Under the pieces are notes generated by a model that saw nothing but the letters and a program-made list of their open reading frames with translations, made no database searches and was not told the origin of the DNA. A DNA stretch of 64,000 bases from Clostridia bacterium (lineage in GTDB: Bacteria > Bacillota > Clostridia > UMGS1883 > UMGS1540), in assembly GCA_045535515.1 (NCBI GenBank), contig JAZSLT010000016.1:83802-147801 (forward strand), written 5' to 3'. A program made the translations under genes and the position numbers. This document shows positions 6,580 to 53,814 of this stretch, one piece after another (position 1 is the stretch's first letter; each line of letters opens with the position of its first letter).

Positions 6580-8022
6580 CTATTCACAAATAAATACGGC
6601 ATAGTCGGCCGTGCCTTTTACGCGGAGCACATCGCCCGCGGTTTCAAAGGTAATGCCGTCGCTCTTTTCATATACGCGGACGGAGCCGTGTACGGGAATT
6701 TCTAAAGTGTTTTCTTCGATAAAGTCTACATAAATATAAGTTTTTCCGGTATAGGAAACGGTGTAAAAGGAAGCGCGGTCGGTACTTTGCGGGAAATACT
6801 TTTTGTAGGCTATGCCGCGAACGGCGGTTAAATCACCATCCATGAAGGTGGGATAAACCTTGCGCGTTTTATAGAGATGCCCGGCCTCCGACAAATGCGA
6901 AAGACGCTTTTCGGGCGCGCCGTCAAAAACAGGCAGAAAACCTGCGGCAAAGCCTAGACGGTCATGTCCCGCGCTGTCGCGGAAATAATCCACTACGCGG
7001 TCGGGCGGAGAATCCGGCACGGCCCAGGATTCCCGATAAAGGCGCGGACTGCTTTCGGGATACGCGCCGCGCGCGAGGGAGATGGGCGTATTAAAATCAA
7101 AAGTACCATCGCAAAGCGAGAGGGGCAGGGTTTTCGGCACGCGGCGATAAATACCGCCACCAAAGGCGTCCTGCTTTTCCTGATACATAATGCCGAGCCA
7201 TCTTTCAAAGCGGATGTCCATGGTCTTTTTCACCGAAAAGTCACATAAGACGGTGCCGTCCGGCAGAAGATGGTAGTACATACGATGCACAAGCATCGTT
7301 TCGCCAAAGTCACCAAGGTCAGGCTGATGGGCAAAGCCACCTTCGGGGCGCGCCGCGGTAAGGGCGGGCGCGACGGTGGCAGGGTTTCGGAGCTCATATT
7401 CCTCCTCAATCCGCGCGCTGTCGCAACGCGCCTTTACATAAAGGGTGCTTTCCTCCCCATCGGTAATGGTAACGATGCGCTTTTTCGTAAATTTATATGC
7501 ACGCGTAAGATAAACGGTGGTCTGTTTATCGAAGGCCGGAATGGCGGCAGTATTTTCGCCGTCCGAAACATAGGCAAGCTTACCTGTAATCTGCATGACA
7601 AATTTATAATCTTCCAGGGTGCCAATATTTTCGGACACAAACATCAGATGGTCCTCCGTTTCGATGCGAAGGAGCGTAAAGGTAACACCTGCCTCGTCCT
7701 TCCATACGGAGCCGACATCGGCGACCGTTTTGCCGTGGCCGGGTGCGCGCAAAACGATGCAGCAGGGCTGACCGTGGCCGCCACCGAGCCATGTGCCGTT
7801 TATAATGCCCGGCGTAGCCTCGTCGTTTGTAATGGCAAGCGGGATGTCTAAATGAAAACAGTCCCATTTGGCCTTCTCGATAAGACCGGCCTCCATAAAA
7901 TCAACCGGGTCATTGAAGGTGCCGCCGGTTTGCGATACACCCCGGAATTTCTGTACGAGGTCATGCGTTTCAGAATAGGGCGTTTGGACCAGAAGCTGGT
8001 ATTTTGACATATAAAGAAACAT
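6580..8022 (-). CDS. hypothetical protein (about 480 aa, beta-rich, no signal peptide); the track ORF extends to 8046
   Basis: Long ORF with no family I recognise. Preferred start is the ATG at 8022, with AAGGAGA 6 nt upstream. Sits immediately downstream of the XRE-cupin regulator. Confidence 0.5.
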   Translation of the reverse strand: MFLYMSKYQLLVQTPYSETHDLVQKFRGVSQTGGTFNDPVDFMEAGLIEKAKWDCFHLDIPLAITNDEATPGIINGTWLGGGHGQPCCIVLRAPGHGKTVADVGSVWKDEAGVTFTLLRIETEDHLMFVSENIGTLEDYKFVMQITGKLAYVSDGENTAAIPAFDKQTTVYLTRAYKFTKKRIVTITDGEESTLYVKARCDSARIEEEYELRNPATVAPALTAARPEGGFAHQPDLGDFGETMLVHRMYYHLLPDGTVLCDFSVKKTMDIRFERWLGIMYQEKQDAFGGGIYRRVPKTLPLSLCDGTFDFNTPISLARGAYPESSPRLYRESWAVPDSPPDRVVDYFRDSAGHDRLGFAAGFLPVFDGAPEKRLSHLSEAGHLYKTRKVYPTFMDGDLTAVRGIAYKKYFPQSTDRASFYTVSYTGKTYIYVDFIEENTLEIPVHGSVRVYEKSDGITFETAGDVLRVKGTADYAVFICE

Positions 8023-8035
8023 ACCGGTTCTCCTT

Positions 8036-8590
8036 TTAGATAACAAGGGTTAAAAGCTTGGCAGGAGCATCGCCTATGGCAATCATGCCATGCGGATAGG
8101 AGGAATCATAGTATACGGAATCGCCGGCCTCTAAAATCTCCTCCTTGCCGCCGATGGTGATTAAAATTTTTCCTTCCAGAACATAGTCAAATTCCTGCCC
8201 CTTATGAATGTTCGTATGGGGTTTTTCCTCGCCCTCCTGCGGCGCAACCGTTACCAGAAGCGGAAGCACCTTCGGATCGGCAAAGTTATAAGCGAGATGC
8301 TGGTAATCATACTGCTTGCAGCGCTCAATGGCAAGACCGCTGCCGCCGCGCACGACCTGATATACGCGGAGCTTTGCATCCTTGCCGGACAAAAGCTCGT
8401 ATACCTGAATACCGAAGTGGTTGGCGATATCAGAAAGAAAGCTTATCGGCATATCGGAGGAGCCGCTTTCATATTCTAAATAGGTTTCGTGCGAAACCTT
8501 GAAAAGTGCGGCCATTTCCTGCGTGGTGCGCCCTTCAATTTCGCGTAATTCCCGTATCCGCAGCGCTACTTTTTTAATATCTTCATTCAT
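8036..8590 (-). CDS. XRE-family HTH transcriptional regulator with a C-terminal cupin domain
   Basis: N-terminal HTH (LRELREIEGRTTQEMAALFKVSHETYLEYESG) and C-terminal cupin (GQEFDYVLEGK...GDSVYYDSSYPHG). Start taken at MNEDIKK, with GGGAGG 7 nt upstream. Confidence 0.75.
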   Translation of the reverse strand: MNEDIKKVALRIRELREIEGRTTQEMAALFKVSHETYLEYESGSSDMPISFLSDIANHFGIQVYELLSGKDAKLRVYQVVRGGSGLAIERCKQYDYQHLAYNFADPKVLPLLVTVAPQEGEEKPHTNIHKGQEFDYVLEGKILITIGGKEEILEAGDSVYYDSSYPHGMIAIGDAPAKLLTLVI

Positions 8591-10809: not shown

Positions 10810-10831
10810 ACTAAAAAACGCCATACAAAAA

Positions 10832-10858
10832 GGCACGGTTTTCAGCCGTGCCTTTTTT
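10832..10858. terminator. bidirectional rho-independent terminator between groEL and the convergent minus-strand gene
   Basis: GGCACGG-ttttcag-CCGTGCC followed by TTTTTT; the stem is extended by an outer CCATACAAAAA/TTTTTGTATGG repeat, so there is a U-run on both strands. Confidence 0.7.
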
Positions 10859-10874
10859 GTATGGCAATAAGCTT

Positions 10875-12053
10875 TTATTCTATGTCACTTCCTGTAAGCT
10901 GTCCCAAAAAGGAAATGGTGGGAATATCATGGACATTTTGTATTACGCGGATAGAAAGCTCCTTGGCGCGGTTTAAGAAGGAGGCGTCGGGCCGGTGCTG
11001 CGTCAGTACAATCATTCGCTCGGCATAAGGCCCGCCAAAGCGGTCCGCCACCACCGAAAGCTTATACAGTTCATCAGCATCCACGAACCCGTTTTTACAG
11101 GAAATGAAAATCGGCGTAATTCCTCGCATGAGGAATACATCTATCTCATTGAGAACATCCTCTTTCCAATAAGAGGCCATAAGATTGTCCCAATCCATCG
11201 TTACCCCTACTTTTCCGTCCGTAAACAGCCGGTTATCGCGACCGGGGTATACATACGCCGCATAATAGGTGTAAAGCTCCAGGGCAGTCCCTTCTTTTTC
11301 AAGTGCGTATTGCACCGCGTAGCTTTTATACGAAAAGGAAATGTGCGTGCTGTCCTCTGCGTATTCCGTTAAAGCGCCCACATCCCGAAGAGCGTGTAGG
11401 ACAAAGAAAAGCGCCTCGGCTTTCTTTTCGGAAAGCTTATTTTCTACGGTTTCCCGCGAAAGGCTGACGGAGGCATCCTCCGGACGCACAAAATGGTGCA
11501 GGGAACTGATAGCCGTATTCCACGCGCCGCAGTCCTGTTTTGCGACGGACCATACATCCAGCACATCCGCCCAGAAATCGGTGGACGGGGGCGGGGTGAA
11601 GGAGCCGGTAATACGGCCGCCGTAAAGTGTAATATTCTCCGAAACACTAAGACGGGGCGAGCGGGGGAGGGGATAGGCCATACCTTCGTCCAAGGGGGAA
11701 AGCGTATGGAAAGCTGGGTCCACCGTGTGCATCGGAATCCCGTATTTCCGGGAAAGGACACCCATGGCCACCAGCATTTCATCCTGTCCACCGGTTACAT
11801 CAAAGGCACAATCGGGATATGTCGCAAGAATACGCTCCAGCGCCTTTATAAGAGCCGGATACTTTCCGGCACAAACGACTACTTCTACCCTTGTAGGAAG
11901 ATGCTGCGACAAAATAATTTTTTCCATACGGCTTTTACACGCGTCCAGCTGCACGGCATCTGCCCCCAAAAGAACAAGCCGCTCGGGAGAAAGAAGCAGG
12001 GTGCTCAGCGCATTATGAATACTGACAGAATCCAAAAATTCAATAATAGTCAA
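10875..12053 (-). CDS. hypothetical two-domain protein: Rossmann-like N-domain (CARF-like DVTGG motif) and C-terminal PD-(D/E)xK-like region; translationally coupled to smc
   Basis: 392 aa with a TTG start at 12053 and RBS AAGGAAGG overlapping the smc stop. N-terminal beta-alpha-beta pattern RLVLLGADA / VEVVVC / CAFDVTGGQ. C-terminal EIDVFLMRGITPIFISCK. No family assigned with confidence. Confidence 0.5.
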   Translation of the reverse strand: MTIIEFLDSVSIHNALSTLLLSPERLVLLGADAVQLDACKSRMEKIILSQHLPTRVEVVVCAGKYPALIKALERILATYPDCAFDVTGGQDEMLVAMGVLSRKYGIPMHTVDPAFHTLSPLDEGMAYPLPRSPRLSVSENITLYGGRITGSFTPPPSTDFWADVLDVWSVAKQDCGAWNTAISSLHHFVRPEDASVSLSRETVENKLSEKKAEALFFVLHALRDVGALTEYAEDSTHISFSYKSYAVQYALEKEGTALELYTYYAAYVYPGRDNRLFTDGKVGVTMDWDNLMASYWKEDVLNEIDVFLMRGITPIFISCKNGFVDADELYKLSVVADRFGGPYAERMIVLTQHRPDASFLNRAKELSIRVIQNVHDIPTISFLGQLTGSDIE

Positions 12054-12065
12054 GGCTATCCTTCC

Positions 12066-15000
12066 TTACGATTGTTTCCGGATGTCCTCCAGCTGCATGG
12101 TCAGCAGCTTGGAAACACCTTTTTCCTGCATCGTTACACCATAGAGTACATCGGCGGCCTCCATCGTGCCGCGGCGGTGCGTAACAATGATGAACTGTGT
12201 ATGGGCGTAATTACGGAGATACGCCGCAAAGCGGTCAATATTGTGGTCGTCAAGAGCCGACTCAATTTCGTCTAAGATACAAAACGGCGCGGGGCGCACG
12301 CGAAGCACCGAGAACAAAATAGCAATCGCAGTCAGCGCTTTCTCACCGCCGGATAAAAGCGAAAGATTCTGCAGCTTTTTGCCGGGCGGTTGCACATCAA
12401 TTTCAATGCCGCTCTCCAGAATATTCTCGGGGTCCGTCAGCGTCAGCTTGCCGGTGCCGCCGCCAAAGAGCGTGCGGAAGGTATCCTTGAAATGCTCGGC
12501 AATTTCCGCAAAACGGGCGGAAAAGGTTTCCGTCATAACCTGTGTCATATCACGGATGATTTTTTCCAGCTCTGCCATGGCCTGTTCAAGGTCGGCAATC
12601 TGTCCGGACAAAAATTCGTGCCGCTTTTTCACTTCTTCATATTCTGCCATCGCGTCCACATTGACGCTGCCGAGATTACGGATACTGCGGCGAAGGCGCA
12701 CAGCCTCCTCCTTGGCAGGTCCCGTGGGGCCAATATCCGTCTGGAAGGCTATGGCGGCAGAATAGGTAAGCTCATACGCATCCCAAAGGTGAGAAACCGT
12801 ATCGTCCAGCGCACCTTGCGCTTTTTCAAGCCGTGCCTCGAGCCTTGCTTTTTCGCCTTGCAGGGCGGAAAGCTTTTCGTTTTGCGCCTGCAAATCCGTA
12901 CGCAGCAGCGCGGCCCGTGCATCGGCCGTACCCTTCTCGGCCGTCATGCTGGACAGATTGTCCTGAAATTCCTGTGCCTTTGTCCGGGCCGCCTCCATGT
13001 CAATAAGGCGGTTGGCGTGGCGAAGACGAAGCTCCTCTGCATTTTGCAGAGCCAGGCGCCTTTGGTGTTCCTTTTCGGCTACGGCATCGCGCACCTTCTG
13101 CACCGAGAGCATCGTCTGTTCCCGCTTTTGCGAGGCCGCTACCAAATCCTTTTCTGCGGAATTTACCGCTACCTGCAGCGCGGCGAGAGAATCGCGCTGG
13201 CGGCTTTGATTTTCCATATAGGTATGTAAAAGCGCGCGCGCCTCCCCGGTGTGTGCGCCTGCTTCATCGTGCTTTTTGCGGAGCATTTTTTCCTCATCGC
13301 GAAGACGGGCCTGCTCCTTATCAGCGTTTTCCATCTGCGCGTGTGTGCTTTCAAGGTCTGCCCGAAGCCTTGCCAGATGCTTTTCCTCGTTTTCGCGCGC
13401 GCCGGCGGCAAGCTGCAGCTGCCCTTCGCATTGCATCAGCGCCGCCTTTTGCTTTCCGTGTAAAGCGCGCAGTTCATCTGTTTTTTCTATAATTTCAGCG
13501 ATGCGGTCATTTTGTGCATCAATAGCCTCTTCCATTTTCTGCATTTTGGCGGAAAGGGTGGCACATTCTTTCCCGAGCGCCGCAATTTCCTCGCTCCGGC
13601 CCAGAAGATGCGACTGCCCTTGCCGGCTGCCGCCGGACATGGAACCGCCGCGCTGGAGAAGCTCTCCGTCCGTGGTGACAATCCTAAACTGGTGCGAAAA
13701 CTTCCGCGCCAGCGCGATGGCATGGTCAATCGTGTCCACCACCACCGTACTGCCTAAAAGCTGCAGAAGAATATCCGCGTAGTCGGCATCTGCCGAAACG
13801 AGGTCACACCCAAGACCGATAACACCTTCGGCAGACAGGACGCGCTGGGCATTAGGAAGTCGCTGTCCCCGTACCGCGGAGATAGGGAGGAAGGTCGCGC
13901 GCCCTTCATGGGTGCGTTTTAAAAAGGCGATAGCCTCTTTGGCATCCTCCTCCGTGCCGACAACAATGTTCTGTAAGGCACCGCCGAGTGCCGTTTCAAT
14001 AGCCGTTATGTAGGCGGGCTCCACGCGGATAAGCTGGGAAAGGACACCGCGGATGTCAGCAGAAAGACCGGCCGACAAAACGGCGCGGACACCCCTTGCA
14101 TAGCCTTCCATCGTTTGTTCCATTTCAGAAAGCGCATTTTTGCGCGAAAGCTTCTGGTTATACAGCCGCATACATTCGTTGTAGCTGTTTTTTTGCGCGG
14201 TCATCTTTTCCTGCACGCGCGGCTTCTCGGCCGCAAGGCTATGAAAATCTGCCGTCGTTTTCTCTATTTCGGCAGAAAGCTTTTCTTTTTCCTTCCGGAG
14301 CTTTTCTGTCTTCTCGCGGTTTTCGGCAAGATGCTGCTCGGCCCCGGCAATTTCCGCCGCCAGCTCGCTTTTCCGCGCCTGTAAATCATAGCCGGCGAGC
14401 GCCTCTATATGCCTTGCCATCTCGTCCGCCTGCGCCAGAAGCTGGGCAGCCGCGGTGGCCAGATTTTCGCAAACCTCTGTCTGTGTACGGATGGTGGCGG
14501 CGGTGTTTTCAAGCTTTTGCCGTTCCTCCTCCACCGCTTTCTCCGCCTTTTCCAGAGCGCGCTTATAGTCCTCCATTTGCGCCTCATTCGCGCGTGTATC
14601 TTCTTCCAACGCCAAAATTTCTTCTTCCAGCGCCTTTTTTTCTGTTTCATATTTTTCTGCCGTTTGCGTTTCGATTTCCATGCGCTGGAAAAGGAGTGCA
14701 TTATCGCCCTCCCAGCCTTTTATCGAAAGGTCGGTGCTGTGGAGAAGGGTGCGGATATTCTCTATTTCCGCATCGCGTTTTTTCATTTCGCCGTAGAGTG
14801 TTTCCTCCTCCAGCTTCAAAGCGTCAAGCTTCTGCGTTTCCGTCTCCAGCTCTTTTTCCACCGCCGCAAAAAGTTCGGCAGCCTCTTTTTGCGTTTTCTG
14901 TAGTTTCTCAATATCGGAAATGGAAAGGTTAATTTCCAGAACCTTCAGCTTTTCGTATAGGTCTAAATATTCCCGTGCCTTTTTGGCCTGCGCCTCCAGC

Positions 15001-15611
15001 GGTGCCAGACGGGCAGAAAGCTCGCCATGAATATCGCGCACGCGAACAAGATTCTCCTCCGTAGTGGTCAGCTTCCGTACCGCCTCGTTCTTTTTATACT
15101 TATATTTGGAAATGCCGGCCGCCTCTTCAAAGATTTGCCGCCGTTCCTCGGATTTTTGCGACAGGACGGCATCAATCTGCCCCTGGCTGATAATCGAATA
15201 GCCGTCACGCCCAAGACCGGTATCCATGAAAAGCTCGTGAATATCCTTAAGACGGCAGGGTGTTTTGTTGATAAAATACTCGCTTTCTCCGCTGCGATAT
15301 ACGCGGCGCGTAACCGTAATTTCCGTATAAGGGCTTGAAAAAAGCCCGGAAGTATTGTCGAGCGTCAGCGACACCTCGGCAAAGCTTACGGGTTTATGTT
15401 TGGCCGTACCGGCAAAAATAACATCCTCCATGCGGCTGCCGCGGAGTGATTTTATGCTTTGTTCGCCCAAAACCCAGCGGATAGCATCGGTAATGTTGCT
15501 TTTTCCGCTGCCGTTAGGACCGACAATGGCAGTGATGGCATAGTCAAAGGATACGGTCAGCTTGTCCATAAAGGACTTAAAGCCGTACATTTCGAGCTTT
15601 TTCAAATACAT
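12066..15611 (-). CDS. smc: chromosome segregation protein SMC
   Basis: 1181 aa; N-terminal Walker A FKSFMDKLTVSFDYAITAIVGPNGSGKSN, long coiled coils, a hinge, and a C-terminal LSGGEKALTAIAILF signature with Walker B ILDEIESALDD. Confidence 0.9.
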   Translation of the reverse strand: MYLKKLEMYGFKSFMDKLTVSFDYAITAIVGPNGSGKSNITDAIRWVLGEQSIKSLRGSRMEDVIFAGTAKHKPVSFAEVSLTLDNTSGLFSSPYTEITVTRRVYRSGESEYFINKTPCRLKDIHELFMDTGLGRDGYSIISQGQIDAVLSQKSEERRQIFEEAAGISKYKYKKNEAVRKLTTTEENLVRVRDIHGELSARLAPLEAQAKKAREYLDLYEKLKVLEINLSISDIEKLQKTQKEAAELFAAVEKELETETQKLDALKLEEETLYGEMKKRDAEIENIRTLLHSTDLSIKGWEGDNALLFQRMEIETQTAEKYETEKKALEEEILALEEDTRANEAQMEDYKRALEKAEKAVEEERQKLENTAATIRTQTEVCENLATAAAQLLAQADEMARHIEALAGYDLQARKSELAAEIAGAEQHLAENREKTEKLRKEKEKLSAEIEKTTADFHSLAAEKPRVQEKMTAQKNSYNECMRLYNQKLSRKNALSEMEQTMEGYARGVRAVLSAGLSADIRGVLSQLIRVEPAYITAIETALGGALQNIVVGTEEDAKEAIAFLKRTHEGRATFLPISAVRGQRLPNAQRVLSAEGVIGLGCDLVSADADYADILLQLLGSTVVVDTIDHAIALARKFSHQFRIVTTDGELLQRGGSMSGGSRQGQSHLLGRSEEIAALGKECATLSAKMQKMEEAIDAQNDRIAEIIEKTDELRALHGKQKAALMQCEGQLQLAAGARENEEKHLARLRADLESTHAQMENADKEQARLRDEEKMLRKKHDEAGAHTGEARALLHTYMENQSRQRDSLAALQVAVNSAEKDLVAASQKREQTMLSVQKVRDAVAEKEHQRRLALQNAEELRLRHANRLIDMEAARTKAQEFQDNLSSMTAEKGTADARAALLRTDLQAQNEKLSALQGEKARLEARLEKAQGALDDTVSHLWDAYELTYSAAIAFQTDIGPTGPAKEEAVRLRRSIRNLGSVNVDAMAEYEEVKKRHEFLSGQIADLEQAMAELEKIIRDMTQVMTETFSARFAEIAEHFKDTFRTLFGGGTGKLTLTDPENILESGIEIDVQPPGKKLQNLSLLSGGEKALTAIAILFSVLRVRPAPFCILDEIESALDDHNIDRFAAYLRNYAHTQFIIVTHRRGTMEAADVLYGVTMQEKGVSKLLTMQLEDIRKQS

Positions 15612-15642: not shown

Positions 15643-16485
15643 TTATTTTCTTAAAAAGAGAATACCTAATGTGCCGGGACCGCAATGGCTGGATATGACA
15701 CAGCCGGCATCGGCCTCGTAAATCTTCGCGAATATACCAAGCTCCTCCAAGGTTTCCAGCGCGGCCGCGTGCACCTCGGGGTCCACCCCGGCATCCGTCA
15801 GGAATACAAAATCCGGCTGTACTTCTTTCTCGGCGAGCCGTTCCTTTATGTATTTGGAAACCACCATTTTCAGCTTGCCGCGGTATTTTTGCTCCATGCC
15901 GAGCTTTCCGTCCGAAACGGCGAGACACGGCTTTATACCAAGGAGATTTGCCCCAAGTGCTGCTACACCGCTGCAACGGCCGCCGCGGTGGATATAATCC
16001 AGCCTGTCGAGTACAAAGCTTACATCACAGCACGAAGCCATATCCGTACAGGCGGCGGCAATCTCCGCCGCTGTCGCGCCACCCTCGCGAAGAGAAATCG
16101 CGTGCAGGAGAAGGAGCGCTTCTCCGGAGGAAAGCGACATGGTGTCCACAACAAATACATTTTCCAGCTCGCTTGCCGCAAGCCTTGCGTTCTGACAGGC
16201 CGACGAAAAGCCGGAGCCGATGGAAAAATAAACAACAGCCTCTCCTTGCTCTAAAAGAGATGTAAAGAAATCCGTAAAATCAGCGGGGGGAATGGCAGAG
16301 GTTTTCGGCATCATGCCAAGCTCCTCCACCTTTTTATAAATCTCATCCCGCGTAATAGATACACCGTCCACAAACTCTGCGTCTCCGAAACTGATGTGAT
16401 AGGGGATAACGGCTACGGAATGTTTGGTGAGAACCGAGGCCGGAACATCACACGCGCTATCTACGGCGAATATAATTTTCTGCAT
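15643..16485 (-). CDS. DegV-family fatty-acid-binding protein
   Basis: MQKIIFAVDSACDVP...; start placed at the ATG at 16485, with AAAGGA 7 nt upstream; the track ORF extends further to 16545. Confidence 0.8.
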   Translation of the reverse strand: MQKIIFAVDSACDVPASVLTKHSVAVIPYHISFGDAEFVDGVSITRDEIYKKVEELGMMPKTSAIPPADFTDFFTSLLEQGEAVVYFSIGSGFSSACQNARLAASELENVFVVDTMSLSSGEALLLLHAISLREGGATAAEIAAACTDMASCCDVSFVLDRLDYIHRGGRCSGVAALGANLLGIKPCLAVSDGKLGMEQKYRGKLKMVVSKYIKERLAEKEVQPDFVFLTDAGVDPEVHAAALETLEELGIFAKIYEADAGCVISSHCGPGTLGILFLRK

Positions 16486-16501
16486 ATTCTTATCCTTTCT
16501 T

Positions 16502-17380
16502 TTATTCTTCGAGCTTGCGAAGCTCCGCAATTTCTTTTTCGCCAAGTTTATCGCTGTTATGGCGATTTCCTTTTCGGATAAACTTTACTTCCTCGCGCGA
16601 AAAATCAACGATTGCACCCTCCTCGCTGCCCTCAAGCCGCACGCGGAGCTTGCCAGAAAGGAGCGCAACAGTAATAACCGTTCCGTTGCCGCGCGGCGTT
16701 TTGACGAGTGCCCCAACCGGAGGCGTAATCTTTTGCAGCTCTTCATACGAATCCTGCTCGTATTTCAGGCAGCACATCAGCCTTCCGCAGGTGCCGGAAA
16801 TCTTTGTGGGATTTAAGGAAAGCCCCTGCTCCTTTGCCATTTTAATCGAAACCGGCTGAAAATCGCTTAAAAATGTCGAACAGCAAAGCGGGCGACCGCA
16901 AACGCAAAGTCCGCCCATGAGCTTGGCCTCATCGCGAACGCCGACCTGCCGCAGCTCTATACGGGTGCGGAATACCCCTGCGAGGTCCTTGACCAGCTCG
17001 CGGAAGTCCACACGCCCGTTGGCGGTGAAGTAAAAGAGTATTTTATTACCGTCAAAGGAGTATTCGGCGTGAATAAGCTTCATTTCCAGCTTGTGCTTTT
17101 CAATTTTTTCCAGACATATAGAAAAGGCTTCCTTTTCCTTCTTGCGGTTTGTTTCCACCTGACGCGTATCGGCGGGCGTTGCAATACGAACGACCTTTTT
17201 AAGCGGGGAAACCAGCTTGTCGTCGGGAATATCGGTGACGGGAACAGAAACCTCGCCGTATTCCAGGCCGCGTGCTGTTTCCACTACAACATGCATACCG
17301 ACCGAAAGCGGTAAATCCGCTGGGTCAAAGTGGTAAACCTTGCCGTTTTCTTTAAATCTGACACCTACTATCCGTATCAT
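16502..17380 (-). CDS. ricT: PSP1-domain protein RicT/YaaT (stage 0 sporulation protein YaaT-like)
   Basis: 292 aa; N-terminal MIRIVGVRFKENGKVYHFDP; cysteine cluster CVCGRPLCC...CGRLMCC; lies downstream of holB as in Bacillus. Confidence 0.8.
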   Translation of the reverse strand: MIRIVGVRFKENGKVYHFDPADLPLSVGMHVVVETARGLEYGEVSVPVTDIPDDKLVSPLKKVVRIATPADTRQVETNRKKEKEAFSICLEKIEKHKLEMKLIHAEYSFDGNKILFYFTANGRVDFRELVKDLAGVFRTRIELRQVGVRDEAKLMGGLCVCGRPLCCSTFLSDFQPVSIKMAKEQGLSLNPTKISGTCGRLMCCLKYEQDSYEELQKITPPVGALVKTPRGNGTVITVALLSGKLRVRLEGSEEGAIVDFSREEVKFIRKGNRHNSDKLGEKEIAELRKLEE

Positions 17381-18347
17381 GACAATACCTCCAACATTCT
17401 GATAGAAAATCTGTTATCCATAGTGTAAAGTTTGAACCCTTGCCGATGGATGCGGCAAGCGAGATGGCTGCTTCGTGGCAGCAAGCGGCCGCGCGTGGCG
17501 ACACGGAAAAGGCAAATTGCGAAATCGCTGCTTCAAAATCGCGGTTTTGGAGTGCGCCGCCATCGGAAAGCTGCACATAAATACAGTCGCGCATCCACGA
17601 GGAAAAAAGAGCAAGCATAGAGGGAAGGGCGTCTTTGTATTCCTCAAAACAGCGTAGTATGGCATAAATACCGGCCCGTGAGGCGGTAAGACGGGGAAGA
17701 AGCGAAAAAAGCGACTCGCGCATGGCAAGGTATGTCTCATCCTCGGCAAGGCTTGCAGCTGTGCCGATGCTGCCGCCGGCACTTGCCGCCAGAAAGGGCG
17801 CATCTATGGCGCGCTCGGGGAAGTTTTCCCGTATATATTCTTCCAGTTCTCCGTAGGGGCATCCCGTCATTCCCAGCACAATACCGCGCGATAAAACCGT
17901 TTTCAAAAGGGCATCGCGGCTTGTGGTGGTCAATAAAATCGTTACATAGGGGGGCGGCTCCTCAAAGGCCTTCAAAAGCGTGTTTTGCACAGCCGCAGAA
18001 AGCTTTTCCCCGTCAGGAATAATGTACACCTTGCGCTCCGCCAGAAAGGGCTTTACATACATTTCCGCCACAAGCGCGCGCGCTCTTTCTACATGAAACG
18101 GATTTTTTTCATCCGCCTCCACAAAAATCATGTCGGGATGGTTGCCGCTTTTCGTTTTTATGCAGGCGCTGCACCGGCCGCAAGGCGCATCCTCGCCTTC
18201 GCAAAGGAGCATCTCGGCCAGATGGCGGCACAAGGTCTTTTTTCCCATACCAACAGCACCCTCGAAAATATACAGATGTCCGATTGTATGCTTTCGGAGT
18301 GCTGCCTTAAAATATGCTATCTGTTTTTCCTTGCCGTACAGCTTCAA
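17352..18347 (-). CDS. holB: DNA polymerase III subunit delta-prime
   Basis: 331 aa; HLYIFEGAVGMGKKTL Walker-like motif; CGRCSAC zinc module; synteny with yaaT. Confidence 0.75.
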   Translation of the reverse strand: MKLYGKEKQIAYFKAALRKHTIGHLYIFEGAVGMGKKTLCRHLAEMLLCEGEDAPCGRCSACIKTKSGNHPDMIFVEADEKNPFHVERARALVAEMYVKPFLAERKVYIIPDGEKLSAAVQNTLLKAFEEPPPYVTILLTTTSRDALLKTVLSRGIVLGMTGCPYGELEEYIRENFPERAIDAPFLAASAGGSIGTAASLAEDETYLAMRESLFSLLPRLTASRAGIYAILRCFEEYKDALPSMLALFSSWMRDCIYVQLSDGGALQNRDFEAAISQFAFSVSPRAAACCHEAAISLAASIGKGSNFTLWITDFLSECWRYCHDTDSRCQI

Positions 18348-18670
18348 ACCTTTTCAAACCTGTCTACATCCGTAACAAATATGGTGGCACCGCCTATTTC
18401 CACCTCAACCGGCTGGGGCGTGTAAACACCCGCCATGCCCGCGGAAATCGGTGTTGTCATAATATGCTTACGGGTGTGGCACCTTTCTTTGAAAATAGAG
18501 ATGGCTTCCTCTACGCGTTCCTCCTCTGTACCGACAAGGAGGGTGATATTCCCCGCGCGGAGAAAACCGCCGGTGGTAGCGAGCTTTGTGACACTAAAGC
18601 CGGCTTCACTTAATGCGCCGAGAACTTTATTCCCGTCGTCGCTGTTAACAATCGCTAAAATAAGCTTCAT
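18344..18670 (-). CDS. darA: PII-like c-di-AMP receptor DarA/YaaQ
   Basis: 108 aa from MKLILAIVNSDDGNKVLGALSEAGFSVTKLATTGGFLRAGN; RBS GGAGAA; ATGA overlap with holB; the track ORF is over-extended to 18916. Confidence 0.7.
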   Translation of the reverse strand: MKLILAIVNSDDGNKVLGALSEAGFSVTKLATTGGFLRAGNITLLVGTEEERVEEAISIFKERCHTRKHIMTTPISAGMAGVYTPQPVEVEIGGATIFVTDVDRFEKV

Positions 18671-18821
18671 AAAACATTCTCCTTTTCCTTTTTGGATGCG
18701 TTTTCTGCGCATAATAGAGAAAATCATTTTACTTAAGATACAGTATAGCATAAAATAGGAAAAAAAGCAAAGCTTTTTTACAAGGAAGCGGCAAAAATAT
18801 TGCGAAAAAGAGGAAATAAAT

Positions 18822-18870
18822 AGAGAAAAACACCCCAAAAGAGCGAGTTTGCATCGTCTTATGGGGTGTG
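18822..18870 (-). terminator. rho-independent terminator after the dehydrogenase gene
   Basis: On the minus strand, CACACCCCA...TGGGGTGTG hairpin followed by a U-rich tract. Confidence 0.45.
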
Positions 18871-18916
18871 CGTAAAAGCTTTTGTGTGTGGGCGCGGGGC
18901 TTGTGCCTTCCGGCAA

Positions 18917-30490: not shown

Positions 30491-32746
30491 ATGGTTATGT
30501 GTTCTCGTTGCAAAAAGAATGTTGCGGTCATGTTTGTAACGAAAATTGAAAACGGAGAAAAGAAAACGGAGGGTCTTTGCCTTTCCTGTGCGCAGCAGTT
30601 GGGACTTGATATGGGCCAGCTTGCCGGCAATATGGGTCTTGAACCGGAGCTTTTTGAAAACTTAAGCGAGCAGGTTATGCAAATGATGGAAAGAGAAGGG
30701 GACGAGGAAGGCGGACAGCTTTTTCAGGACCTTTTCGGCATCCTGGAGGGGCCTGCGAGTGAGAAGGATACGCCCGATGCGGAAACGGAAAAACCCAAAG
30801 ACAAAAACGGCAAAAAGGAAAGCAAGAAAAAGAAGAGAATGCTGGACTCTTTTGGGACAAATCTGACGCTCCGCGCCCGCGAGGGGCAGGTGGACCGCGT
30901 GATTGGCCGCGAGGAGGAAATTACCCGCTGCATGGAGATTTTAAACCGCCGCACGAAAAACAATCCTTGCCTGATTGGCGAACCGGGCGTCGGCAAAACG
31001 GCGATTGCCGAAGGCCTTGCCACGAGAATTGTGGAGGGCAAGGTGCCGGCAAAGCTTCTGGATAAAGAAATTTTCCTTCTGGACTTCACGGCGATTGTGG
31101 CCGGCACGCAATTTCGTGGGCAGTTTGAGGCGCGGCTGAAAAGCATTATTGAAGAGACCAAAAAGCTCGGCAATGTGATTTTGGTGATTGACGAGCTGCA
31201 CAATATCGTCGGTGCCGGCGATGCCGAGGGCGCGATGAGTGCGGCCAACATTTTAAAGCCGGCGCTGGCACGCGGCGAAATTCAGGTTATCGGTGCGACC
31301 ACAACGGCGGAGTACCGAAAGCACATTGAAAAGGATTCGGCGCTGGAGAGGCGCTTCCAGCCTATTTTGGTGGAAGAGCCGGGCATAGAAGAAACGATTT
31401 CCATTATTACGGGGATTAAGGATTATTATGAGGAATATCATAAGGTGAAAATCGGCGCCGAGGTTATCCGCGCCGCCGCGGAAATGAGCGAGCGGTATAT
31501 TACGGACCGCTTTTTGCCCGATAAAGCCATTGATGTACTGGATGAGGCGGCATCCCGCGCCAATCTCCGGAATGTTTATATCGCGCAGCTTGCCCGCCTT
31601 CGTAAGGAATTGGAAGAGGTGCGCGCCACAAAGGAAACGGCCATCGGCACAGATTCCATGGAATCCTACCAGATTGCAGCCGACCTGAAAACAAAAGAAT
31701 GCCGTCTGGAGGAAAAAATACGCGAGACGGAGACCGAGATGCAGGAGGTGCGCCTTACCGTAGAGGATGTGGCGCGCGTAATTGCGAGATGGACGAAAAT
31801 TCCGGTAGGACAGATTACGAAGGAAGAAACTACGCGCCTTTTAGAGCTGGAGAGCACCCTCCGAAAAAGAGTGAAGGGACAGGACGAGGCGATTTCGGCG
31901 GTGGCCGGTGCGATGCGCCGCGGCCGGGCCGGACTCTCCAAGGTCAGAAGGCCGGTATCCTTTATTTTCACAGGCTCCACGGGCATCGGCAAAACGGAGC
32001 TGGCCCGCGCGCTGAGCGAGGCTATGTTTGATACGGAGGATGCCTTAATACGCGTTGATATGTCGGAATACATGGAAAAGCATGCGGTGTCGAAGCTCAT
32101 CGGCTCGCCGCCCGGCTATGTCGGCTACGAGGATGCCGGTCAGCTTACCGAGAAAATCCGCCGTCGTCCGTACAGCGTTATTTTGCTTGACGAGGTGGAG
32201 AAGGCACACACCGATGTACTCCATACATTTTTGCAAATTCTGGACGATGGGCATATCACCGATAGCCACGGCAAAAAGGTCAGCTTTGCAAACACCGTGA
32301 TTATTATGACCTCCAATGCCGGCTCTGATTATAAGGGGACGGCGCCCGGCTACACCACCTCGGCGGTGCAGGCAGGGCAGGATAAGGCGATGAAGGCGCT
32401 TCGGTCCTTCTTTCGTCCGGAATTTTTAAACCGCATCGACGAAATTATTTTCTTTAAGCCTTTGGAAAAGCCGGTCCTCATGGAAATCCTCGATAAAATG
32501 CTGGCAGAGTTTGCTGAAATTCTGGAGAAAAGGGGCATTTCCTTCTCTATTACCGAGGAGGCCAAGGCACTTCTTCTGGAGAAAGGCTTTGATGCGAAAA
32601 ACGGGGCCAGACCCTTGCGCCGCGCCATCGCGAGACATATTGAGGATAAAGCGGCCTATATGCTGATAGCCGGAGAAATAGGAGAGGGCGACACCTTCTC
32701 GGTGCGCGCGGAAGGGGAAGAACTCGTCTGCGAGCGGACAAAATAA
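30491..32746 (+). CDS. clpE: ClpE-type AAA+ Clp ATPase (N-terminal zinc finger, two AAA+ modules)
   Basis: 751 aa; N-terminal CSRCKK...CLSCAQQ; GEPGVGKT Walker A in both nucleotide-binding domains; sensor/ClpB-D2 signature. Confidence 0.8.
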   Translation: MVMCSRCKKNVAVMFVTKIENGEKKTEGLCLSCAQQLGLDMGQLAGNMGLEPELFENLSEQVMQMMEREGDEEGGQLFQDLFGILEGPASEKDTPDAETEKPKDKNGKKESKKKKRMLDSFGTNLTLRAREGQVDRVIGREEEITRCMEILNRRTKNNPCLIGEPGVGKTAIAEGLATRIVEGKVPAKLLDKEIFLLDFTAIVAGTQFRGQFEARLKSIIEETKKLGNVILVIDELHNIVGAGDAEGAMSAANILKPALARGEIQVIGATTTAEYRKHIEKDSALERRFQPILVEEPGIEETISIITGIKDYYEEYHKVKIGAEVIRAAAEMSERYITDRFLPDKAIDVLDEAASRANLRNVYIAQLARLRKELEEVRATKETAIGTDSMESYQIAADLKTKECRLEEKIRETETEMQEVRLTVEDVARVIARWTKIPVGQITKEETTRLLELESTLRKRVKGQDEAISAVAGAMRRGRAGLSKVRRPVSFIFTGSTGIGKTELARALSEAMFDTEDALIRVDMSEYMEKHAVSKLIGSPPGYVGYEDAGQLTEKIRRRPYSVILLDEVEKAHTDVLHTFLQILDDGHITDSHGKKVSFANTVIIMTSNAGSDYKGTAPGYTTSAVQAGQDKAMKALRSFFRPEFLNRIDEIIFFKPLEKPVLMEILDKMLAEFAEILEKRGISFSITEEAKALLLEKGFDAKNGARPLRRAIARHIEDKAAYMLIAGEIGEGDTFSVRAEGEELVCERTK

Positions 32747-53433: not shown

Positions 53434-53670
53434 TTATTTGAATGCGACTGCAAGCACAACAGAGAGAATGATGAACAATACAGCCAGAATTACAGTCCAC
53501 TTTTCCAAAATACCGTTTAAGGTCTTGCCTCTGTTCTTGCCAAAAAAGTTATCGGCATTGCCACCGGCAATCGTACCGGAAAGACCTGCATCCTTACCAT
53601 CCTGCAGAAGAACAACGGCAGAAAGAAGAACCGTAACGACTATATGTATAATCGTAAACGCCATTTTCAT
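53434..53670 (-). CDS. secG: preprotein translocase subunit SecG
   Basis: MKMAFTIIHIVVTVLLSAVVLLQDGKDAGLSG...; two TM segments. Confidence 0.75.
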   Translation of the reverse strand: MKMAFTIIHIVVTVLLSAVVLLQDGKDAGLSGTIAGGNADNFFGKNRGKTLNGILEKWTVILAVLFIILSVVLAVAFK

Positions 53671-53814
53671 AGCTACACCCCCCAAATTAATTTCATATTC
53701 TGTAGTGTACCACATATTTGTATATTTTACAAGGTTTTTTCAAAAATTTATCACAAAAAAGACTTTTTATTTTTCAAATGGGCGTGGGAAAACAGAACCG
53801 AGCGGAAGACAGCG

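What the first reader, a model, noticed from the sequence alone, without database searches (positions are those of the whole stretch)
10875..12053. Rossmann-like (possibly CARF) plus PD-(D/E)xK-like protein translationally coupled to housekeeping smc
A 392-aa protein with no obvious family starts at TTG 13 nt after the smc stop. Its RBS (AAGGAAGG) lies within the end of smc. It occupies the position where ftsY normally follows smc in Firmicutes. The N-terminal ~120 aa form a Rossmann-like beta-alpha-beta repeat ending in DVTGGQ, which resembles the [DN]x[ST]xGG[TQ]K ligand-binding motif of CARF domains; the Lys is replaced by Asp. The C-terminus contains EIDVFLMRG-ITPIFISCK. The D-(13)-S-x-K spacing resembles the D-(14)-E-x-K nuclease motif of Card1/Can-type REase domains. 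Such a protein would be a nucleotide-sensing nuclease; this one may be degenerate. Its coupling to SMC suggests a link to chromosome or foreign-DNA surveillance. The closest analogies are Wadjet and Lamassu, where SMC-family ATPases partner with nucleases. Here the SMC is the canonical 1,181-aa condensin, so the association is unusual.
Basis: inference. Interest (0 to 1): 0.6.

Follow-up and report, generated by a model that had tools for sequence, protein, structure and literature searches.

The report
Orphan Can2-type CARF nuclease after smc
The gene after smc encodes a relative of the signal-activated CRISPR helper nucleases Can2 and Card1 whose sensor pocket has lost the residues that bind the usual signal, and its link to smc is a feature of this lineage, not of the family.

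Summary
The ORF is real: 10875-12053, minus strand, 392 aa, TTG start 12 nt after the smc stop. Its conserved N-terminus MTIIEF confirms the start.

It is not degenerate. S-C-K is fixed in 259 of 261 relatives. Ser at that position occurs in active TbrCan2. A Glu on the next helix covaries with it.

The CARF pocket is unusual. The T-K of the NxTGGTK motif and the four cA4-contact residues are missing, and acidic residues replace them across the family.

The SMC idea is not supported as a family property. smc adjacency is confined to one vertically inherited branch: 9 of 128 dereplicated groups overall, 0 of 80 metagenome loci.

Seven groups lie inside type III-B Cmr loci. Five of these have CorA and two also have a DEDD exonuclease, the published signature of SAM-AMP signalling.

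Best reading: an orphan, ligand-gated nuclease of CRISPR-ancillary ancestry, fixed as the last gene of the darA-holB-ricT-degV-smc operon. The ligand is unknown; SAM-AMP is a speculative candidate.

The parts
10875..12053 (-). Gene for a 392-aa Can2/Card1/VC1899-family protein (CARF + insertion domain + PD-(D/E)xK nuclease)
   Evidence: ORF. PADLOC CARF4--CARF_PDDEXK E 1.8e-25 over residues 2-382. Family profile against PDB: VC1899 2e-11 and Can2 6.5e-11, both full length. AF2 pLDDT 92.6. Foldseek: 1xmx E 4e-22, 7bdv 1e-18.
11679..12053 (-). CARF domain, about residues 1-125. Family-invariant residues are T2, E5, F6, D8, N14, P23, G30, C82, D85, G88, G89, G98. The motif is D85-V-T-G-G-Q-D91.
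   Evidence: Secondary structure E2-6, H11-21, E25-30, H33-49, E55-60, H65-78, E82-85, H91-104, E108-112. Conservation. No K/R at the GGTK Lys position in any of 252 relatives with the motif; acidic residue after GG in 233 of 262.
10929..11303 (-). PD-(D/E)xK nuclease domain, about residues 251-375. Proposed site residues: E259, E303-x-D305, S318-C-K320, E328, K331.
   Evidence: All are invariant in both subclades. Pfam PF09002 matches residues 296-372. By alignment they correspond to Can2 E276/D278 and TsuCan2 E302/K304.
12060..12067 (-). Shine-Dalgarno AAGGAAGG, overlapping the smc stop codon (12066-12068) and 6 nt upstream of the TTG
   Evidence: Read directly from the sequence.
10813..10865 (-). 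Intrinsic terminator immediately after the gene: hairpin plus U6. The same palindrome can serve convergent groEL.
   Evidence: RNA fold -30.7 kcal/mol, z -7.0, 0 of 200 shuffles fold as well.
12066..15611 (-). Canonical smc (1181 aa), the upstream gene in the same operon. It is context, not a demonstrated partner.
   Evidence: ORF. Orthologues in relatives carry SMC_N and SMC_hinge domains and are 44-78% identical.
15643..18916 (-). Upstream operon genes degV, PSP1/ricT-like, holB and the c-di-AMP receptor gene (darA-like), conserved with smc-carf in relatives
   Evidence: Pfam annotations of the syntenic loci L081-L083. CdAMP_rec in the window at 18344-18916.

Best explanation
The gene encodes an orphan member of a distinct subfamily of the Can2/Card1 (Crf4/CARF4, DUF1887) effectors. 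By analogy with solved relatives, it would be a homodimer in which a small molecule bound between the two CARF domains switches on a metal-dependent PD-(D/E)xK nuclease that cuts DNA and/or RNA. Shown: the fold, the family membership by profile and by structure, and invariance of the site residues E259, E303, D305, S318, K320, E328 and K331. Also shown: family-wide loss of the cA4-contact residues, and placement of several relatives inside type III-B Cmr/CorA(/DEDD) CRISPR loci. Also shown: in this lineage the gene has been inherited vertically as the terminal, translationally coupled gene of the darA-holB-ricT-degV-smc operon, ending at a strong terminator. Inferred: the nuclease is active, with Ser318 giving outer-sphere metal contact as in TbrCan2 and Glu328 on the second core helix possibly supplying the displaced acid as in Cfr10I. 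Inferred: the activator is not cA4 but a less anionic ligand. Inferred: smc coupling only provides constitutive expression and does not mark a functional SMC partnership.
For: Family and fold. Site conservation: S-C-K in 259 of 261 relatives; every family-wide conserved residue is shared by the smc-linked and the main subclade; the nuclease domain is the most conserved part (62% and 52% mean pairwise identity). Ser is compatible with activity: PMC10783487 gives the Can2 motif as E-ExD-(E/S)CK and shows Ser356 of active TbrCan2 at this position. Covariation: members with E-C-K have T/A/V/I at the helix position (0 of 34 have E), while the S-C-K clade has E there; the Cfr10I precedent for PD-XXK-E is in PMC3424549. 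Pocket: by profile alignment, S19/T42/K99/Y118 of Can2 (PMC7969007) correspond to D8/A31/D91/T109. CRISPR link: L021, L065, L067, L109, the L139 group, L107 and L159 carry cas6-cmr1-cas10-cmr3-6, CorA, a DEDD exonuclease or CRISPR arrays directly abutting the gene. These copies are only 34-47% identical to each other, and their nearest relatives are not CRISPR-linked. Vertical inheritance with smc: CARF identity tracks SMC identity across 9 loci, and the downstream genes differ. Operon end.
Against: No type III CRISPR genes, corA or any signal synthase lie in the 64 kb window, and the rest of the genome could not be searched. The CRISPR-linked relatives are only about 30-33% identical to the window protein, and none belongs to its own subclade. 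Only 7 of 128 dereplicated groups are CRISPR-adjacent. The nearest solved structure, VC1899, is an orphan that showed no cA4 regulation and only weak RNase activity in vitro (PMC7969007). No coordinates of the model were available, so I could not check whether E328 reaches the metal site. Long-term retention in a housekeeping operon is unusual for a defence effector.
Confidence: 0.55

Rival explanations
1. SMC-associated housekeeping factor. In this lineage the protein has been recruited to chromosome maintenance, for example processing DNA structures met by condensin, and works with SMC.
For: smc-carf coupling is conserved in 7 genomes whose SMC proteins are 56-78% identical to the window's, with overlapping stop and start codons in some, while the downstream genes differ. 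A neighbouring branch has the reverse order, carf-smc-ftsY (L012, L030, L031). CARF divergence tracks SMC divergence.
Against: The smc-linked copies form part of one branch of the tree, interleaved with non-smc lineages. This fits inheritance of a chromosomal neighbourhood (ecf-truA-DUF5711-cvpA ... carf-smc) better than repeated selection for linkage. 0 of 80 metagenome loci and about 93% of dereplicated groups lack smc. The smc-linked subclade keeps exactly the same conserved residues, CARF pocket included, as the CRISPR-linked members, so there is no sign of a new function. PADLOC gave only CARF-family hits for this protein, none to Wadjet or Lamassu components.
Confidence: 0.12
2. Catalytically inert pseudo-nuclease. 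A ligand or nucleic-acid binding protein (sponge or regulator) that retains the fold but does not cleave.
For: The canonical Glu of ExK is replaced by Ser. The closest structure, VC1899, was essentially inactive in vitro (PMC7969007). The pocket lacks all cA4 contacts.
Against: The remaining catalytic residues (E259, E303, D305, K320, K331) are invariant, and the nuclease domain is the best conserved part. Ser at this position is found in active TbrCan2 (PMC10783487). E328 covaries with the Ser.
Confidence: 0.15
3. Signal-degrading enzyme. The PD-(D/E)xK or CARF domain hydrolyses the second messenger (SAM-AMP or cOA) rather than nucleic acid, acting as an off-switch like NrN, DEDD or ring nucleases.
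For: In L021 and L067 the gene directly follows corA, the position usually held by NrN, DEDD or the lyase (PMC10600005, PMC12255297). No such enzyme was detected nearby by Pfam.
Against: L139-type loci have both this gene and a DEDD exonuclease after corA. L065 has this gene as the only ancillary gene, with no CorA, which suits an effector better. Can2-family CARF domains are reported to lack ring-nuclease activity (PMC12825302).
Confidence: 0.08

Closest known systems
VC1899 of Vibrio cholerae (PDB 1xmx), the orphan DUF1887 protein
   Same: It is the best structural match (Foldseek E 4e-22, TM 0.74/0.76) and the best profile match (2e-11). It has the same three-part architecture. It is not encoded in a CRISPR locus. 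Its CARF pocket is lined by acidic and hydrophobic residues in place of the cA4 contacts: Asp9 corresponds to D8 here (PMC7969007).
   Different: VC1899 keeps E-C-K and has Thr at the helix position, whereas this clade has S-C-K plus Glu. Sequence identity is only about 17%. VC1899 has SCGL where this clade keeps TGG.
Can2 (SthCan2 7bdv, TsuCan2, TbrCan2 8q3y) and Card1 (6wxw): cA4-activated type III CRISPR ancillary nucleases, the Crf4/CARF4 clade
   Same: Full-length homology and fold. The REase motif E-ExD-(E/S)CK is shared. TbrCan2 carries Ser at the same position and is active (PMC10783487). Some relatives of the window protein sit in type III-B loci.
   Different: NxTGGTK is said to be conserved in all seven Can2 clades (PMC10783487). 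Here the T-K is absent across the family and usually acidic. None of S19, T42, K99 or Y118 is kept. The window copy has no CRISPR genes within 64 kb. Pfam PF09002 scores below its cut-off.
Cfr10I/Bse634I/NgoMIV-type PD-XXK-E restriction endonucleases
   Same: Ser replaces the acidic residue of (D/E)xK, and a Glu sits on the second core helix (PMC3424549). That is the same pattern as S318-C-K320 ... E328 here.
   Different: There is no detectable homology beyond the shared fold. The role of E328 is inferred from covariation only, not from coordinates.
   Same: Only that an SMC-family ATPase gene and a nuclease gene are adjacent.
   Different: Here the SMC is the canonical condensin in a housekeeping operon. 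The nuclease is a CARF-PD-(D/E)xK protein, not JetD or LmuA. PADLOC returned no Wadjet or Lamassu model for it. The linkage is restricted to one lineage.

Membership tests
Can2/Card1 (Crf4/CARF4-PD-(D/E)xK; DUF1887, PF09002) | Architecture: N-terminal CARF, insertion domain, C-terminal PD-(D/E)xK nuclease | tested here: met
   The PADLOC CARF4--CARF_PDDEXK model matches residues 2-382 at E 1.8e-25. AF2 model pLDDT 92.6. Foldseek top 22 hits are all VC1899, Can2, Cdn1, Card1 or Can1.
Can2/Card1 (Crf4/CARF4-PD-(D/E)xK; DUF1887, PF09002) | REase motif E-ExD-(E/S)CK (PMC10783487) | tested here: met
   E259, E303-I-D305 and S318-C-K320 are invariant in the clade.
Can2/Card1 (Crf4/CARF4-PD-(D/E)xK; DUF1887, PF09002) | CARF motif NxTGGTK, conserved in all seven Can2 clades (PMC10783487) | tested here: not met
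   The window has D-V-T-G-G-Q-D. None of 252 relatives has K/R at the Lys position, and 233 of 262 have an acidic residue after GG.
Can2/Card1 (Crf4/CARF4-PD-(D/E)xK; DUF1887, PF09002) | cA4-contact residues shared by Can1 and Can2 (S19, T42, K99, Y118; PMC7969007) | tested here: not met
   The profile alignment to 7bdv places D8, A31, D91 and T109 at these positions. This rests on sequence alignment only, not on a structural superposition.
Can2/Card1 (Crf4/CARF4-PD-(D/E)xK; DUF1887, PF09002) | Encoded in or next to a type III CRISPR-Cas locus | tested here: not met
   No cas genes, corA or CRISPR array in the window. The feature is met for 7 of 128 dereplicated groups of relatives. The rest of this genome could not be searched.
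Can2/Card1 (Crf4/CARF4-PD-(D/E)xK; DUF1887, PF09002) | Pfam PF09002 gathering threshold | tested here: not met
   22.9 bits against a cut-off of 26.4. Many close homologues do carry a precomputed PF09002 hit.
Can2/Card1 (Crf4/CARF4-PD-(D/E)xK; DUF1887, PF09002) | cOA-activated DNase/RNase activity | not testable with these tools
   Needs biochemistry.
VC1899-like orphan DUF1887 proteins | Can2 fold, non-CRISPR context, acidic/hydrophobic CARF pocket without cA4 contacts | tested here: met
   Best structural and profile match. Housekeeping context. D8 corresponds to Asp9 of VC1899.
Wadjet / Lamassu (SMC-family ATPase with dedicated nuclease) | Dedicated non-housekeeping SMC-like ATPase (JetC/LmuB) with kleisin-like or other partners, plus a JetD or LmuA nuclease | tested here: not met
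   The SMC is the 1181-aa canonical protein with a hinge, in a holB-ricT-degV operon with orthologues across relatives. PADLOC hits for the nuclease are CARF families only. The smc protein itself was not scanned against PADLOC.

The most novel reading that the evidence does not exclude
The S-C-K clade with the acidic pocket may be a CARF sensor family for a non-cOA, partly cationic Cas10 product such as SAM-AMP. The argument: its members sit in CorA(+DEDD) type III-B loci, effectors in one locus usually share one activator, and its pocket has swapped the phosphate-binding T-K, Ser and Thr for Asp and Glu. The same charge logic explains D70/E151 in SAM-binding Cas10. If so, the copy fixed behind smc would be a constitutively expressed, stand-alone SAM-AMP-gated (or related ligand-gated) nuclease. 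It would be the first soluble nuclease effector of that pathway.
Probability: 0.18. Interest if true: 0.8.

Novelty: new variant of a known kind. Interest (0 to 1): 0.48.

Why it matters
Can2/Card1 nucleases are understood as cA4-gated effectors that carry a conserved NxTGGTK pocket. This is a large subfamily, with 824 cluster representatives at E<=1e-30. It keeps the nuclease site under strict constraint but has rebuilt the sensor pocket with acidic residues. It recurs next to CorA/DEDD type III-B systems. [quoted passage not shown]

If the ligand is SAM-AMP or another non-cOA molecule, the known chemistry sensed by CARF domains would widen, and the SAM-AMP pathway would gain a second, soluble effector. 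The window copy also shows that such an effector can lose its CRISPR context and persist for a long time as the last gene of an essential-gene operon. That matters for annotating 'orphan' CARF proteins.

If the ligand turns out to be an ordinary cOA, the finding is a routine divergent Can2.

Tried and rejected
- **Wadjet/Lamassu-like SMC-nuclease system.** Rejected: PADLOC gave only CARF hits, the SMC is canonical, and the linkage is lineage-restricted.
- **Degenerate or dying gene.** Rejected because the site residues are invariant in 259 of 261 relatives and because of the TbrCan2 Ser precedent.
- **Mobile-element origin.** tblastn against PLSDB plasmids and INPHARED phages, and a scan of IMG/VR, found nothing.
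- **The RyR / cl2 / AAA-M41 neighbour cluster as a partner in this genome.** No homologue in the window except an ordinary ClpA/B-like AAA protein at 30491-32746.
- **Identifying the source genome.** The look-up of encoding contigs had no record for P0001, and the listing of cluster members gave no name or accession.
- **Collecting full-length E-C-K family members with a profile of PDB fragments.** Only 49 short fragments came back. They were enough for the motif tally but are biased toward Vibrio-type sequences.
- **Testing Cas10 of the linked loci for the SAM-specific D70/E151.** Conserved acidic residues exist (D67, D74, D151, E154; GGDD intact). Without the B. fragilis sequence the correspondence could not be established, so this is inconclusive.
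- **Literature searches.** A search on orphan CARF proteins was mostly noise, and a search on RyR-domain defence systems found nothing relevant.
- **c-di-AMP as ligand, suggested by darA in the operon.** Set aside because, from prior knowledge, darA-holB-ricT is a widespread Firmicute arrangement unrelated to this gene.
Full report
**1.

- The ORF listing gives a 392-aa ORF at 10875..12053 on the minus strand with a TTG start, directly after a 1181-aa ORF at 12066..15611.
- Read on the minus strand, the junction is ...CAA TCG TAA GGAAGG ATAGCC TTG ACT ATT ATT GAA. There are 12 nt between the stop and the start.
- The AAGGAAGG Shine-Dalgarno (12060-12067) overlaps the smc stop by 2 nt and lies 6 nt before the TTG.
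- The TTG is the true start. The N-terminus MTIIEF[FY]D is the most conserved stretch of the family.
- Directly after the stop codon there is a strong hairpin followed by U6 (-30.7 kcal/mol, z -7.0), which faces convergent groES-groEL.
- No sigma-70-like site stands out inside the 3' end of smc on that strand.
- The gene is therefore the last, coupled gene of the smc transcription unit.

**2. What the protein is.**

- Pfam finds only Card1_endonuc (PF09002) at residues 296-372. The score is 22.9 bits, below the 26.4 cut-off.
- PADLOC's CARF4--CARF_PDDEXK models match the full length at E 1.8e-25.
- A profile of 37 homologues matches VC1899 (1xmx, 2e-11) and Can2 (7bdv, 6.5e-11) end to end, and Card1 over the nuclease domain.
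- The AlphaFold2 model is confident (pLDDT 92.6, pTM 0.90).
- Its best Foldseek matches in the PDB are VC1899 (E 4e-22, TM 0.74/0.76), SthCan2, Cdn1, Card1, other Can2 proteins and Can1.
This is a CARF-plus-PD-(D/E)xK protein of the Can2/Card1 (Crf4) family.

**3. The nuclease site is a conserved variant, not a decayed one.**

- Across 262 relatives the motif after NE-x-D is S-C-K in 259 of the 261 where it could be located.
- Residues conserved in both the smc-linked subclade and the main clade include E259, D279, N302, E303, D305, S318, C319, K320, G322, E328, L329, Y330 and K331.
- The nuclease domain is the best conserved part of the protein.
- By alignment, E303/D305 correspond to the Can2 catalytic E276/D278. 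S318/K320 correspond to TsuCan2 E302/K304.
- Jungfer et al. (PMC10783487) already write the Can2 motif as E-ExD-(E/S)CK. They show that in active, cA4-dependent TbrCan2 the equivalent residue is Ser356, which makes an outer-sphere contact to Mn2+.
- I also found a clean covariation. Members with E-C-K carry T/A/V/I two residues before the conserved Tyr of the following helix (0 of 34 have Glu). The S-C-K clade has Glu there (E328).
- This is the PD-XXK-E arrangement described for Cfr10I, where the Glu moves from strand 3 to the second core helix (PMC3424549).
- Whether E328 really reaches the metal site could not be checked, because model coordinates are not exposed.

**4. The CARF pocket is the unusual part.**

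- Jungfer et al. state that NxTGGTK is conserved in all seven Can2 clades, and that its T-G-G-T-K residues grip the ribose-phosphates of cA4.
- Here the motif is D-V-T-G-G-Q-D. None of 252 relatives has Lys or Arg at the Lys position, and 233 of 262 have Asp or Glu after GG.
- Zhu et al. (PMC7969007) list S19, T42, K99 and Y118 as the cA4 contacts shared by Can1 and Can2.
- In the profile alignment these positions are D8, A31, D91 and T109. D8 and E5 are nearly invariant.
- This resembles orphan VC1899 (Asp9, Asp34 and others), which is not regulated by cA4.
- The pocket residues T2, E5, D8, N14, D85, G88 and G89 are conserved in every subclade, including the window's. The groove is therefore under selection, but for something other than cA4.

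**5. Genomic context of the family.**

I collected 80 loci from species-representative genomes, 3 loci of the closest relatives and 80 metagenome loci.

*smc linkage*
- Adjacency to smc occurs in the window, L001-L003 and L081-L083. The order there is c-di-AMP receptor gene, holB, PSP1, degV, smc, carf, with different genes downstream.
- In L003 and L082 the start and stop codons overlap.
- The reverse order, carf-smc-ftsY, occurs in L012, L030 and L031.
- In a neighbour-joining tree the smc-linked copies fall in one branch, which they share with copies that follow cvpA and three loci without either context.
- L030 and L031 carry ecfA-ecfT-truA-DUF5711-cvpA a few genes upstream, which suggests one ancestral chromosomal neighbourhood.
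- CARF identity tracks SMC identity (55/78, 53/72, 51/70, 43/58, 44/56, 36/49, 31/44 %). This indicates vertical co-inheritance.
- None of the 80 metagenome loci has smc.
- After dereplication at 85% identity there are 128 groups, and 9 of them are smc-adjacent.

*Type III-B CRISPR linkage*
- Seven groups abut type III-B CRISPR-Cas genes.
- L021 reads cas6-cmr1-cas10-cmr3-6-corA-carf-cas6'-array.
- L065 reads cas6...cmr6-carf-array.
- L067 reads array-corA-carf, followed by a protein with only a CARF2 domain.
- L109 reads carf-cas6-corA-cmr genes.
- The L139 and L107 groups read carf-cas6-cmr1-6-corA-DEDD.
- L159 has cas6 next to the gene.
- Sources for these layouts.
- The CRISPR-linked copies are only 34-47% identical to each other, and their nearest relatives are not CRISPR-linked. 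The association therefore recurs across the main clade.
- In L117, L131 and L133 only stubs of cas6 and the DEDD gene remain beside the gene. This shows how orphan copies arise.

*Other contexts*
- The commonest neighbours overall form an uncharacterised set: a membrane protein of about 844 aa with a RyR-like C-terminus, a 98-aa RyR-domain protein, and a protein of about 1150 aa with AAA_2, AAA and Peptidase_M41 domains. This set is absent from the window.
- The family was not found on plasmids, phages or IMG/VR contigs.

**6. Interpretation.**

- The family is a large subfamily of Can2-type effectors (824 50%-identity cluster representatives at E<=1e-30) with a re-engineered sensor.
- CorA next to NrN, DEDD or a lyase is the published signature of SAM-AMP signalling (PMC10600005, PMC12255297, PMC12669027).
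- Effectors in one type III locus usually share one activator (PMC11229360).
- Chi et al. explained the conserved acidic D70/E151 of SAM-binding Cas10 by the change from a negative triphosphate to the positive methionine moiety.
- The same logic would fit a CARF groove that replaced Ser, Thr and Lys with Asp and Glu. SAM-AMP is therefore an attractive candidate ligand.
- This remains speculative. L065 has no CorA. L067 carries a neighbour with only a CARF2 domain, which hints at cOA signalling. The link from CRISPR-linked relatives to the window protein rests on about 30% identity plus shared invariant residues.
- I found no paper in the library describing a SAM-AMP-sensing CARF nuclease.

**7. 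The window copy specifically.**

- No cas, corA or array lies within 64 kb, and the rest of the genome could not be searched.
- The most economical reading is an orphan effector of CRISPR-ancillary ancestry. It became fixed at the 3' end of an essential-gene operon, which gives constitutive expression. It still keeps both its sensor groove and its nuclease site under purifying selection.
- The alternative, that the protein has been recruited to work with SMC, is not excluded. It has no positive support beyond synteny.
- The Wadjet/Lamassu analogy fails the membership tests.

**8. Verdict.**

- The domain interpretation is supported.
- The 'degenerate' and 'SMC surveillance' interpretations are not supported.
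- Novelty: a new variant of a known kind.
- Interest is moderate. It would rise considerably if the acidic-pocket clade proves to sense SAM-AMP or another non-cOA signal.

Noticed in passing
L075:18309-20843, L016:6053-6349, L078:6159-9626, L018:2374-2853, L019:7101-7925 (also L092-L099, L122, L130, L137): The commonest neighbours of this family outside the window form a recurring, shuffled gene set. It comprises a membrane protein of about 844 aa with a RyR-like C-terminus and no Pfam hit, a 98-aa RyR-domain protein (PF02026), and a soluble protein of about 1150 aa with AAA_2, AAA and Peptidase_M41 domains. A YbjN-like protein and a sigma-70 region 2-like protein often accompany them. I found no description of this set as a system. 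In the L139 and L107 groups it lies beside the Cmr-CorA locus too.
   Followed up: partly
L117:11336-11903, L131:9262-9832, L133:6305-6568: In these metagenome loci the family gene is followed by only about 260 nt of cas6, and in L117 and L131 by a 62-aa piece of the DEDD gene. Near-identical loci (L139, L134, L126) hold the full cas6-cmr1-6-corA-DEDD block. This looks like deletion of the CRISPR module that leaves the CARF nuclease as an orphan.
   Followed up: partly
window 53644-58074 (+) and window 6580-8046 (-): Two long ORFs (1476 aa and 488 aa) have no Pfam match at E<=1e-5. The 488-aa one is syntenic in L081, between an HTH/cupin regulator and a PHP-domain protein.
   Followed up: no
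window 10813-10865: A strong palindromic terminator (-30.7 kcal/mol) with A and T runs on both sides sits between convergent groEL and the CARF-nuclease gene. It probably terminates both.
   Followed up: yes
P0201 (833 aa; found): One family member is fused to about 410 aa of C-terminal TPR-like repeats. This is the only domain fusion seen among the top 150 representatives.
   Followed up: no
L067:8185-8823; L065:12133-15873; L139:8432-9823; L067:11376-12614: Several notable genes lie next to CRISPR-linked copies. One is a 212-aa protein with only a CARF2 domain (PADLOC E 1.8e-54). Another is a 1246-aa Tubulin_2-domain protein. TraG/VirD4-type coupling proteins are also present, which suggests these loci lie on integrative conjugative elements.
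   Followed up: no
L021:3689-5164, L065:2138-3673, L109:9559-11208, L139:13363-14889: The Cas10/Cmr2 proteins of the linked loci are short (491-549 aa, no HD domain detected by Pfam in L065), with an intact GGDD motif. They share invariant acidic residues (D67, D74, D151, E154 in L139 numbering). These might correspond to the SAM-specific D70/E151 of B. fragilis Cas10, but I could not verify this.
   Followed up: partly
window 18344-18916 (-): The c-di-AMP receptor ORF is listed as 190 aa, with the CdAMP_rec domain only at residues 83-190. Relatives call a 108-aa protein. The true start is probably internal, which leaves an intergenic gap after the upstream 2-hydroxyacid dehydrogenase gene.
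   Followed up: no
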